64,000 nt of DNA, from contig OX597820.1 in NCBI GenBank assembly GCA_951406725.2, positions 41,912,001-41,976,000 on the forward strand, read 5' to 3'. Both the position numbers and the translations under genes were made by a program. Source of the stretch: Octopus vulgaris (lineage: Eukaryota). Under the pieces are notes generated by a model. That model was given only the letters and a program-made list of their open reading frames with translations, ran no database searches and had not been told where the DNA came from. Numbering within the stretch: the first letter of the stretch is position 1; the number at the start of each line of letters is the position of its first letter. Shown here piece by piece: positions 8,740-62,926 of the stretch.

Positions 8740-9295
8740 CACAAGATTTCCAGGACAACAACAACGGACAATTTCTCAGCGCACATTTCTAAATCGCATT
8801 GGCAAAGTTTCTAGCGTGAAACTCAGTGTACCATTGGAACAATGAAAATTAAACGGTGAAATGCGAAAGCTTAAGAAATTCAGATATACGTAAGCATTCG
8901 TGAAATACACAATAACTATAATACAATATATTTTGGGTAAAAATGCAATAACACCAATCCGGGCATCAGAAATCACAGCTCTGCAGAAAGAGAAGTCAGC
9001 CATAGCAGAAAACTGGGAAAAGCATTTCAACCAAGATCTAAAACCATTGCATATAGCAATTATGGATAATTTCATGAAATACCAGTCATTCATCACCGTG
9101 ACTACATATCGACCCTTGCTGAAGTTAGTTCTGCCCTCGAAACCATGTTCAAGAAATATCCTCGTCGTAGCACTATTCCAACATTTAGTTTATGATTGTG
9201 CTAGGAGGATTTTACAGAAACGAGCAACAAGAAGCATATACGTCAACATTGCAAGGATGTAAGCATAGCCACCATCTTTAAAAAAGAAGGGAAGC
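8740..9295 (+). mobile_element. Degenerate RTE-like LINE ORF2 fragment (tether to start of RT)
   Basis: Frameshifted segments read ITPIRASEITALQKEKSAIAENWEKHFNQDL, STLAEVSSALETM and QHCKDVSIATIFKKEG, in the order expected for the RTE motifs W-x-EHF-x2-LLN, PT-x2-EV-x2-A and FKDA-x-I-x-TIFKKG. Confidence 0.7.
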
Positions 9296-14060: not shown

Positions 14061-14260
14061 CCGCGTGTGTACCGTCGGCGATTTTTTTCCTCTGTCTTCC
14101 CTTCTCTGGATCTTTCCTTCTCCTATGTTTCCACCGAAGAGCTCCGCTCGAAACGTTAAACCCTCCTTCTTTCCTTCTTTCCTGAGCGTCCAATAATACT
14201 ATATTTGTTCCACGTCCTCGCGTTGTTGTGTTTTTTTGTGCTTTCTTGTTTGGATTAACT
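14061..14260 (+). mobile_element. ~200-bp TA-flanked repeat carrying a minimal hammerhead-like motif (Penelope-like, non-autonomous), copy 1
   Basis: Nearly collinear with the reverse complement of 40591-40780. Flanked by (TA)n on both sides. Confidence 0.85.
14127..14161 (+). ncRNA. Minimal type I hammerhead ribozyme remnant (CUGA core mutated)
   Basis: GTTT-CCACCGA-A-GAGC-TCC-GCTC-GAAACGTT-AAAC. Stem II, GAAA and stem I (GTTT/AAAC) are intact, and the CUGANGA box is altered. Confidence 0.55.
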
Positions 14261-14765
14261 TTATATATACATATACTTTCATGCACACATGTACATATAT
14301 GTTTACCAGGTGGAGGTGTATACAGTAGTCCTTCGGTCCAAACGGTTCTCGATTTGGACTGTTTCATTTTCCTAAGTTTTGATTTCCTTTCATCCTTTCT
14401 TGGATGAGTCAGACATTCATCTAAACCAAAGCTGAAATCAAAGCAATCTTTTTTTTCTTTTATCAATATATTTTATAAAATATCTCCAACAGGGGATATT
14501 AGTTGCTTTGAGTGAACAAGCCGATTGCTTCAGAAATGAAAATTATTATATTAAATCAAACTGGAGACATTTCACCAGAAAGTGTGAAATAGGTAAATAT
14601 AAAAGAATAGATTTTGAAAACAATTAAATGATAGAAAAACAAAGGAAAATTAGTCTAGTTATAATCAGTGGATTTTCAATACTTGTTAAAAATACATCAA
14701 ATATACATAGATAATAATTTTATAGAAACCGCAAAAAAACCTATTTGGCATAGAATATAATCCCC

Positions 14766-40583: not shown

Positions 40584-40589
40584 TATATA
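40325..40589. repeat. (TCTA)n-(TC)n-(TA)n compound microsatellite
   Basis: Directly visible. Confidence 0.95.
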
Positions 40590-40590
40590 A

Positions 40591-40780
40591 AGTTAATGCA
40601 AACATGAAAACACAACAACGCGAGGACGTGGAACAAATATAGTATTATTGGACGCTCAGGAAGGAAGGGAAGAAGGAGGGTTTTACGTTACGAGTGGAGC
40701 TCTTCGTCAGAAACATAGGAAAAGGAAAGATCCCGAGAAGGGAAGACGGAGGAAAAAAATCGCCAACGGTACACACGCGG
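40591..40780 (-). mobile_element. ~190-bp TA-flanked repeat carrying a minimal hammerhead-like motif, copy 2
   Basis: Reverse complement starts CCGCGTGTGTACCGTTGGCG and is collinear with 14061-14260. The ORF track shows the same pseudo-peptide YRVCTVGDFFP...SFLSVQ at both loci. Confidence 0.85.
40680..40714 (-). ncRNA. Minimal type I hammerhead ribozyme remnant (GAAA box mutated)
   Basis: Minus strand reads GTTT-CTGACGA-A-GAGC-TCC-ACTC-GTAACGTA-AAAC. The CUGANGA box and stem I are intact, GAAA is changed to GUAA, and stem II has one mismatch. Confidence 0.6.
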
Positions 40781-62762: not shown

Positions 62763-62891
62763 TATCTATTTATATACCCATGCATGTGTTTGTGTATGTG
62801 TGTGTGCGTGCGTACATATGTAGTTCAAATTTATAGAAACACTAAGACGAAAATAGGTGTAGGAACCACTAGCAACGAGAAGAATGGAAAA

Positions 62892-62926
62892 GTCTTTTAC
62901 GTTTCGAGACTACGCTCTTCGACAGA
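62892..62926 (-). ncRNA. Hammerhead-like motif of a second family (CUGUCGA variant core), within a truncated repeat at about 62821-62926
   Basis: Minus strand reads T-CTGTCGA-A-GAG-CGTAGT-CTC-GAAACGTA-AAAGAC. The 5' strand of stem I is lost at the junction with the adjacent SINE. Confidence 0.5.

What the first reader, a model, noticed from the sequence alone, without database searches (positions are those of the whole stretch)
14061..14260. TA-flanked ~200-bp repeat whose two copies reconstruct a minimal, dimer-type hammerhead ribozyme
Seen: 14061-14260 (+) and 40591-40780 (-) are the same element, both embedded in TA runs. Copy 1 has GTTT CCACCGA A GAGC TCC GCTC GAAACGTT AAAC and copy 2 has GTTT CTGACGA A GAGC TCC ACTC GTAACGTA AAAC. 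Their lesions are complementary, so the consensus is GUUU-CUGACGA-A-GAGC(UCC)GCUC-GAAAC-GUH-AAAC: a full catalytic core, 4-bp stem II, 4-bp stem I and a loopless palindromic ACGU stem III. Established: minimal type I hammerheads with palindromic stem III that act as dimers are typical of Penelope-like elements and related non-autonomous retrozyme-type repeats. Inference: this is a non-autonomous, ribozyme-processed retroelement family that prefers (TA)n. Both copies here are probably inactive.
Basis: partly seen in the sequence, partly recalled or inferred. Interest (0 to 1): 0.75.

Follow-up and report, generated by a model that had tools for sequence, protein, structure and literature searches.

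The report
Penelope retroelement ends, altered hammerhead cores
The two repeats are short leftover ends of a common jumping gene (a Penelope-like retrotransposon) sitting in TA microsatellites; the hammerhead RNA motif they carry is a known kind predicted to cut itself, but most copies, including the youngest intact elements, have one normally fixed core letter changed, which would likely make cutting slow or dispensable.

Summary
In detail: 14061-14262(+) and 40589-40780(-) are 88% identical and carry a damaged minimal hammerhead. They are not a separate non-autonomous retrozyme family. They are 5'-truncated ends (solo pLTRs) of autonomous Neptune-type Penelope-like elements: copies 94-97% identical to copy 1 run upstream through a CA-rich UTR into an RT + GIY-YIG frame, and full-length elements carry the motif at both ends. 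At least 14,516 copies exist; 92 of 98 sampled 3' ends abut TA repeats. Exact counts are CCGACGA 9,755, CTGACGA 4,387 and CCAACGA 374, so U4C is the inherited majority. It is fixed in the youngest lineage (58 identical RT segments, 6.2-kb tandem arrays). A sister family has fixed A6U (10,597 against 158). The rest of the fold is conserved. Copy ends do not mark the cleavage site: 3' ends lie about 101 nt downstream, and 59 of 100 5' ends lie 91-114 nt upstream, possibly at the transcript start. Cleavage is untested. The scan found this kind of element before, in this genome and others. New member of a known kind.

The parts
14061..14262 (+). Copy 1: 5'-truncated terminal repeat (solo pLTR) of a Neptune-type Penelope-like element, U4C (CCGA) subfamily A; starts 97 nt upstream of the cleavage site
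   Evidence: 96-97% identical to pLTRs that lie downstream of RT/EN frames in L382, L383, L385 and L361; groups with CCGA copies
14127..14161 (+). Minimal type I hammerhead motif of copy 1: stem I GTTT/AAAC, core CCACCGA (U4C inherited; G5A and A6C private), extra A, stem II GAGC/GCTC, GAA, palindromic ACGT, H17 = T at 14157; predicted cut between 14157 and 14158; likely dead
   Evidence: sequence; 14133 and 14134 read G and A in 92-100% of contig depth in 4 of 4 runs, 14132 reads T in 12-14%
14252..14269 (+). Fixed 3' junction GGATTAAC-TTT-ATATATA; the element's own downstream sequence reads TTTATATA here, giving microhomology to the (TA)n target; inferred start of reverse transcription
40589..40780 (-). 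Copy 2: solo pLTR of the canonical-core (CTGA) subfamily B
   Evidence: 95% over 175 nt to L367 (long, CA-rich extension), 91% over 136 nt to L398 (ORF aa 1-949 in 6 pieces); groups with CTGA copies
40680..40714 (-). Hammerhead motif of copy 2: core CTGACGA intact, private G>A in stem II at 40695 (CpG site) and A13U at 40690; H17 = A; likely dead
   Evidence: sequence; subfamily mates read GCTC GAAAC
62890..62926 (-). Decayed hammerhead remnant of the sister family D (core CTGTCGA, A6U type); same kind of element, not part of the finding
   Evidence: 92% over 37 nt to the family D pLTR; sequence

Best explanation
The two repeats are 5'-truncated terminal repeats (solo pLTRs) of autonomous Penelope-like retrotransposons with Neptune-type motifs, likely inserted by target-primed reverse transcription at (TA)n, and their hammerhead fold is conserved but likely slow or protein-dependent because the most successful lineages have fixed core changes (U4C; A6U in a sister family). 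Shown: linkage to RT + GIY-YIG frames, pLTRs at both ends of full-length elements, 6.2-kb tandem arrays, a fixed 3' end about 101 nt past the cleavage site, TA flanks, and subfamily inheritance of U4C. Inferred: the GIY-YIG nuclease nicks (TA)n; RT starts inside the RNA at a UUAUA(UA) stretch that can pair with the target; the template is intact at the hammerhead (uncleaved or re-ligated). Inferred with less support (about 50%): the roughly 200-bp size arises when RT starts at the site in the 5' pLTR of an ordinary transcript and runs off the RNA 5' end about 110 nt upstream of the cleavage site, while long copies need more-than-unit templates (tandem arrays or circles).
For: L132 holds a 644-codon open frame (RT, CX4CxxC linker, GIY-YIG), a 2.9-kb CA-rich UTR, then the hammerhead end. 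16 of 20 loci picked by an ORF fragment carry a window-like pLTR downstream on the same strand, up to 97% identical to copy 1; L387, L388 and L393 have it at both ends. Canonical-core copies are linked too (L371; L398). 58 of 150 scored RT segments are identical to the query; arrays of 4 and 3 hammerheads 6.2 kb apart, units 98.9-99.9% identical; all 18 family C hammerheads read CCGACGA. U4/C4 travels with a flank marker: 26 of 30 CTGA loci against 2 of 30 CCGA loci carry the TTTTCC type; CpG decay alone would give CTGA about equal to CCAA, but the counts are 4,387 and 374. 3' ends: 92 of 98 abut TA-like repeats; the element's continuation is TTATA(TA) in families A, C and D. 5' ends: 59 of the 64 copies that reach -91 stop between -91 and -114, 5 go further. 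PMC11167929 (parts 1-2 of 4 read): in the anole PLE, RT starts internally, hammerhead mutants still insert, and cleavage needs the protein. PMC2377424 (passages): Drosophila Penelope has an internal promoter in the pLTR.
Against: No cleavage, transcript end or insertion was measured. The run-off model fits poorly in two places: only 2 of 28 copies of the young family C stop in the equivalent window, against 59 of 64 in A/B, and 5' pLTRs of full-length elements start at scattered places (C -187 to -1509, D -509 to -942; A about -50, -120, -135, -290 read by eye). The 5' pile-up could instead come from solo pLTRs being re-copied in trans. One internally deleted mini-element (pLTR-5'UTR-pLTR, L267) was seen in 1 of 30 loci. 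Pfam matches are below the curated cut-offs (RVT_1 E=5e-4, GIY-YIG E=0.007). The order CUGA then CCGA rests on age proxies (nearest-neighbour identity B 92.9%, A 95.5%, C 100%); the tree with family D as outgroup nests CUGA inside CCGA with weak support. No ORF was found behind the copy most like copy 2 (L367). The 100-copy sample is the first 100 anchor hits on contig C1, and the anchor favours CCGA copies (11 of 30 against 7 of 30).
Confidence: 0.85

Rival explanations
1. Same origin, but the short copies form a SINE-like non-autonomous tier: solo pLTRs keep an internal promoter and the priming site, are transcribed into the flanking (TA)n and are re-copied in trans by the PLE protein. This is the closest the evidence comes to the first reader's 'non-autonomous family'.
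For: 95 of 100 sampled copies stop at or before -114 and have a sharp upstream edge; the short form is rare in the youngest family (2 of 28) and common in older ones, as expected if it builds up over time; PMC3846280 (passages) reports pLTRs mobilising unrelated sequence in trans; L267 is a mini-element.
Against: Each short subfamily examined (A, B1, B2) has long copies with the same markers, so no short-only lineage was seen. In the anole PLE, RNA downstream of the RT start is required (PMC11167929), and solo copies lack it.
Confidence: 0.25
2. The hammerheads, U4C and A6U included, are working ribozymes that cut both pLTRs of a transcript with protein help; the unit is ligated to a circle and RT copies more than one round, which gives partial tandems and an intact junction in all copies.
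For: Variable-length 5' pLTRs and tandem arrays; C3, G5, G8, A9, G12-A15, stem II and the ACGU palindrome are invariant in 6 of 6 representatives, loop II varies, one stem I pair is compensated (G-C to C-G) and H17 is U, A or C; H17 is G in 0 of 81 sampled copies; U4C lowers activity in vitro yet allows viroid infectivity (PMC3088659, passage); the circle model is proposed in PMC4209133 (parts 1-2 of 4).
Against: A circle has no 5' end and does not explain the stop at -91 to -114. The youngest family adds a U-U mismatch in stem I, and its double-hammerhead fold is calculated at +0.7 kcal/mol against -22.5 for competing folds. Only 2 of 100 5' ends lie at the cleavage site. In the anole PLE no RNA-seq reads ended at the site (PMC11167929).
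Confidence: 0.3
3. A separate metazoan non-LTR retrozyme family: short tandem repeats released by their ribozyme as small circular RNAs.
For: Size (about 200 bp), no coding capacity in the window copies, type I hammerhead; retrozymes are proposed to derive from pLTRs (bioRxiv 10.64898/2026.07.22.740005, part 1 of 5 read).
Against: 0 of 100 copies are in short head-to-tail tandems; 8 have a second hit nearby, the direct ones at least 827 nt away. The 5' extension leads into a CA-rich UTR and the ORF, not into another monomer. The ribozyme is the minimal PLE type, not the canonical type reported for retrozymes (PMC7229834, passages).
Confidence: 0.05

Closest known systems
Neptune-clade EN+ Penelope-like elements (Craig et al. 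2021, PMC8557442; passages read)
   Same: Single ORF with DKG, YIDD, CX4CxxC linker and C-terminal GIY-YIG with CCHH; pLTRs, partial tandems, microsatellite targeting, hammerhead near the 3' end
   Different: Core is non-canonical (U4C, A6U) in the dominant lineages; 1-3 kb CA-rich 3' UTR; Neptune versus Nematis not tested on a tree
[quoted passage not shown]
   Same: U-rich lead-in, short stem I, extra nucleotide between A9 and G10.1, G10.1-C11.1 pair, palindromic 15.2-16.2, mostly solo genomic copies ascribed to truncated PLEs
   Different: The 56 motifs of their Fig. S3 read CUGA or UUGA as far as the extracted text shows; none reads CCGA or CUGU, but their descriptor fixed the core. No cephalopod is in that list.
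Poseidon PLE of the green anole, PAc (Frangieh et al. 2024, PMC11167929; parts 1-2 of 4 read)
   Same: RT start internal to the RNA at two adjacent sites downstream of the hammerhead; AT-rich targets; unprocessed RNA as template
   Different: There the start site is not homologous to the target and lies in the ORF; here it lies in the 5' UTR and shares TTATA(TA) with the target
Metazoan non-LTR retrozymes (PMC7229834, passages; bioRxiv 10.64898/2026.07.22.740005, part 1 of 5)
   Same: Short, non-coding, type I hammerhead, linked to PLEs
   Different: Retrozymes are tandem arrays with canonical hammerheads and circular RNAs; these copies are solo and continuous with an ORF
Natural hammerhead core variants U4C (viroid) and A6C (phage) (Perreault et al. 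2011, PMC3088659; passages)
   Same: Same positions altered; low but non-zero activity reported
   Different: Here the variants are fixed in lineages of about 10,000 genomic copies each, in a minimal dimer-type motif

Membership tests
EN+ Penelope-like element | Single ORF with PLE-type RT (DKG, YIDD) and C-terminal GIY-YIG with CCHH | tested here: met
   949-aa natural frame of L281: DKG 354, YIDD 596, LIYCIKCNLCGMLYVG 855, His at 883 and 898; Pfam RVT_1 and GIY-YIG below cut-off
EN+ Penelope-like element | pLTRs flanking the ORF, partial or full tandems, 5'-truncated copies with a fixed 3' end | tested here: met
EN+ Penelope-like element | Window copies are themselves pLTRs of such elements | tested here: met
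   copy 1 is 96-97% identical to pLTRs behind ORF pieces (L382, L383, L385); copy 2 is 91% over 136 nt to L398 and 95% to the long copy L367, where no ORF was found
Neptune clade | CX2-5CxxC linker between RT and EN; microsatellite targeting | tested here: met
   CSRSRCNTC at aa 817; 92 of 98 3' ends at TA-like repeats
Neptune clade | RT phylogeny with Neptune rather than Nematis references | not tested
   no reference Neptune or Nematis sequences were fetched
Hydra clade | DKT instead of DKG, no CCHH, CxCX5C linker | tested here: not met
   DKG and CCHH present; definitions from PMC8557442
Naiad clade | N-terminal EN, DKA motif | tested here: not met
   EN is C-terminal, motif is DKG
Minimal type I PLE hammerhead | Stems I and II, extra nucleotide after A9, palindromic stem III, H17 not G, conserved above flanks | tested here: met
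   21 of 27 against 44 of 237 invariant columns in 6 related representatives; H17 G in 0 of 81; stem I has a U-U mismatch in family C
Minimal type I PLE hammerhead | Canonical CUGANGA core in the family majority | tested here: not met
   CCGACGA 9,755, CTGACGA 4,387, CCAACGA 374; position 4 is C in 66 and T in 15 of 81; met only in subfamily B
Minimal type I PLE hammerhead | Self-cleavage as a dimer | not testable with these tools
   needs an assay; the calculated dimer fold is not the most stable one in any of 8 sequences
Non-LTR retrozyme | Short head-to-tail tandem repeats, each with a hammerhead | tested here: not met
   0 of 100; one 2-pLTR mini-element in 30 other loci
Non-LTR retrozyme | No link to a coding element | tested here: not met
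Non-LTR retrozyme | Small circular RNAs | not testable with these tools
   only assembled contigs were available, none on record as RNA

The most novel reading that the evidence does not exclude
Penelope-like lineages in this genome have twice, independently, fixed rate-lowering changes in the hammerhead uridine turn (U4C in families A and C, A6U in family D) while keeping the rest of the fold, and they stayed the most prolific and youngest elements: the motif is being tuned down or turned into a protein-binding structure because intact RNA is the template. In addition, the tens of thousands of 200-bp solo pLTRs are run-off cDNAs that map the element's transcript start and its internal RT start.
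Probability: 0.35. Interest if true: 0.55.

Novelty: new member of a known kind. Interest (0 to 1): 0.33.

Why it matters
What the hammerhead does for Penelope-like elements is still open (PMC8557442 calls its function unclear; PMC11167929 finds cleavage dispensable in vitro). This genome offers a natural series (canonical, U4C, U4C with a broken stem I pair, A6U), each tied to copy number and age, with intact young elements, so the question can be tested directly. Searches that fix CUGANGA miss most of these motifs (about 20,000 of the roughly 25,000 exact matches counted here), and repeat catalogues could file the 200-bp ends as SINEs. As a locus, the two window copies are ordinary dead fragments.

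Tried and rejected
Rfam: no hammerhead match; this minimal motif is not caught by those models, so the blank says nothing. BLAST with copy 1 returned mostly CCAACGA copies; rejected as a sample because it is biased towards copy 1's lesions (CCAACGA is 374 of 14,516). CpG decay as the source of CTGA: rejected for most copies (4,387 against 374; flank markers). No PLE ORF in the window and no convincing host ORF in a stop-to-stop listing (not scanned against Pfam). PDB sequence search with P0001: 0 matches. Sequencing runs: no RNA holder listed; contigs of 4 runs guessed to be RNA cover the pLTR and ORF start but cannot show ends, strand or cleavage. No empty insertion site was recovered, because contigs break at the flanking repeats; contig depth was not used as copy number. 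A hairpin at -116 to -96 as an RT block was considered by eye and set aside: ends fall in its loop and it is weak in other families; not computed. An initiator consensus at -108 is only a loose TCA match, by eye. Rooting with family D did not settle the direction of U4/C4; the automatic 5' start for L284 ran into flank and was dropped. Lunse et al. 2017 (RNA Biol 14:1499) is not held, so I saw only its citation in PMC6765202; it may already describe such core variants. Supplement file 1 of PMC4209133 was not searchable, and bioRxiv supplements are closed.

Full report
Observation. The window is contig C7 of G000, a 2.8-Gb, 227-contig, microsatellite-rich animal genome. It looks octopus-like to me, which is an inference from size and repeat load only. 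Rfam does not detect the motif.

Family size and core. Exact 19-mers over the core give CTGACGA 4,387, CCGACGA 9,755 and CCAACGA 374, each with 0 in the reversed control. A 21-mer from the 3' part gives 10,341. A rough mark-recapture figure is about 26,000 copies. I took the first 100 listed hits of the 3' 21-mer, all on contig C1, as a sample not chosen by core. Of these, 81 span the motif: 57 CCGACGA, 10 CTGACGA, 5 CCAACGA, 9 other; position 4 is C in 66 and T in 15. The anchor somewhat favours CCGA copies. CpG decay of CCGA would give CTGA and CCAA about equally; it does not, and the U/C state travels with a flank marker (TTTTCC type in 26 of 30 CTGA loci and 2 of 30 CCGA loci). So these are subfamilies. 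Copy 1 belongs to CCGA (A) with private G5A and A6C; copy 2 belongs to CTGA (B) with private lesions in stem II and A13. Contigs of 4 runs under four organism labels read T at 14132 in only 12-14% of depth (biased to copies at least 88% like copy 1).

What the repeat belongs to. Some copies extend 5' into a shared CA-rich tract. L132 holds a 644-codon open frame ending 2.9 kb upstream of the hammerhead, with weak Pfam RVT_1 and GIY-YIG matches. The natural 949-aa frame of L281 has DKG, YIDD, CSRSRCNTC and a GIY-YIG with CCHH. These features fit Neptune or Nematis and exclude Hydra and Naiad by the definitions in PMC8557442 (passages). A 227-aa segment has 58 identical matches among 150 scored of 7,571 candidates. 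This young family C forms pLTR-ORF-UTR-pLTR units of 6.2 kb, with arrays of 4 and 3 hammerheads and units 98.9-99.9% identical. Its pLTR is only 74% like copy 1, so I linked the window's own subfamilies directly. In 16 of 20 loci picked by an ORF fragment, a window-like pLTR follows on the same strand; L382, L383 and L385 are 96-97% identical to copy 1, and L387, L388 and L393 have pLTRs at both ends. CTGA copies are linked in L371 and L398. The window itself has no PLE ORF.

Ends. 3' ends are fixed about 101 nt past the predicted cut: 70 of 100 read GGATTAAC followed by TATATA (35) or TTTATA (35); 26 of 30 family C loci end at +101 and 3 more continue into a downstream unit. 92 of 98 ends abut TA-like repeats, against 12% background. 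In 5' pLTRs the element continues as TTTATATACC (A), ATTATACC (C) or TTATATATT (D), so template and target share a short TA stretch. 5' ends in the 100 copies: 14 at or after the cut, 22 between -1 and -90, 59 between -91 and -114, 5 further; 2 lie within -5..+9. The cleavage site therefore defines neither end, and the template was intact there, uncleaved or re-ligated. None of the 100 is in a short head-to-tail tandem. One mini-element, pLTR-5'UTR-pLTR, was found among 30 other loci (L267).

The ribozyme. Across 6 natural representatives (B1, B2, A, C, D1, D2), 21 of 27 columns of the motif are invariant against 44 of 237 in the flanks; the sequences are related, so the P value of 9e-10 overstates the case. 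C3, G5, G8, A9, stem II, G12-A15 and ACGU are kept; loop II varies; one stem I pair is compensated; H17 is U, A or C. What changes is U4 (to C in A and C) and A6 (to U in D: 10,597 exact 30-mers against 158 with CTGAN). Family C also has a U-U mismatch in stem I. The double-hammerhead fold is calculated at -6.7 to +0.7 kcal/mol in B, A and C and about -14 in D, always above competing folds at -22 to -27, so a chaperone would be needed. PMC3088659 (passages) reports U4C as much slower in vitro but viable in a viroid, and A6C as slow. PMC11167929 found the anole PLE ribozyme protein-assisted and not needed for insertion. Age proxies run B (92.9% nearest-neighbour identity), A (95.5%), C (100%), and an EN-region tree separates CUGA from CCGA elements at 99/96 (18 of 26 rows kept after thinning near-identical C copies). 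With D as outgroup, B nests inside A with weak support, so the direction is not settled.

Mechanism. Shown: structure, linkage, end positions and core inheritance. Inferred from known PLE biochemistry: nicking at (TA)n and internal priming at UUAUA. Inferred and uncertain: the stop at -91 to -114 is the RNA 5' end, since Drosophila Penelope starts inside its pLTR (PMC2377424, passages), so that priming in the 5' pLTR gives a run-off product of about 210 nt. Against this, only 2 of 28 family C copies stop there and full-length elements have scattered 5' starts. Family D is intermediate: 14 of 30 start between -85 and -114. Re-copying of solo pLTRs in trans, and a circular template, remain live rivals.

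Known or new. Minimal hammerheads in PLE pLTRs, mostly as solo copies, are described in PMC4209133. A repeat annotation of an octopus genome lists recently active Penelope families and has no occurrence of 'ribozyme' in its main text (PMC13282606, passages). Eight searches showed no paper on fixed U4C or A6U cores in PLEs or on run-off solo pLTRs, but the most relevant paper, Lunse et al. 2017, could not be read. Earlier notes of this scan describe the same kind of element in this and other genomes, including an A6U family; I reached both points before that look-up and do not count the notes as support.

Verdict. A real feature, a new member of a known kind. The identification is secure; the altered cores and end geometry are the parts worth an experiment. 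Interest 0.33.

Noticed in passing
window 62890-62926 (-): Decayed hammerhead end of sister family D (core CTGTCGA), not flanked by TA on its 5' side.
   Followed up: partly
G000, family D (L274-L280, L289-L318): A second abundant PLE family, 79% identical in RT to family C, 4.5-kb unit, with fixed A6U core, 5-bp stem I and GTAG loop; 10,597 exact 30-mers. Its monomer is calculated to fold as one rod with the core strands paired.
   Followed up: partly
L267 (G000:C2:44070341-44073364): Internally deleted mini-element pLTR-5'UTR-pLTR of the window's subfamily, a possible start of a retrozyme-like derivative.
   Followed up: partly
L188, L204, L004, L014, L023, L024, L382 (3' junctions): Short AACT repeats between the element end and (TA)n (2 of 98 in the anchor sample), suggesting slippage and re-priming at the start of reverse transcription.
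   Followed up: no
L136 (G000:C1:14985700-14995600, minus strand, about 9090-9150 from its start): A third hammerhead-like motif with core CGGATGA, a longer stem II and palindrome ACAGCTGT behind a GIY-YIG-like fragment; three PLE ends are stacked in about 400 bp.
   Followed up: no
L132:3-1451: A different, AT-rich PLE frame (RT, CX4CxxC, GIY-YIG; 483 codons seen) just upstream of the family C copy.
   Followed up: partly
L007, L018, L197, L367: Inverted pairs of pLTR copies separated by a short TA run, head-to-head or tail-to-tail.
   Followed up: no
G000:C10:97.80-97.83 Mb and C16:15.98-16.00 Mb: Tandem arrays of near-identical 6.2-kb family C units; several units have a frameshift near the ORF start (884 versus 1008 open codons).
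   Followed up: partly
L113, L161, L361 (3' junctions): A few copies are followed by (TC)n or (CA)n rather than (TA)n.
   Followed up: no
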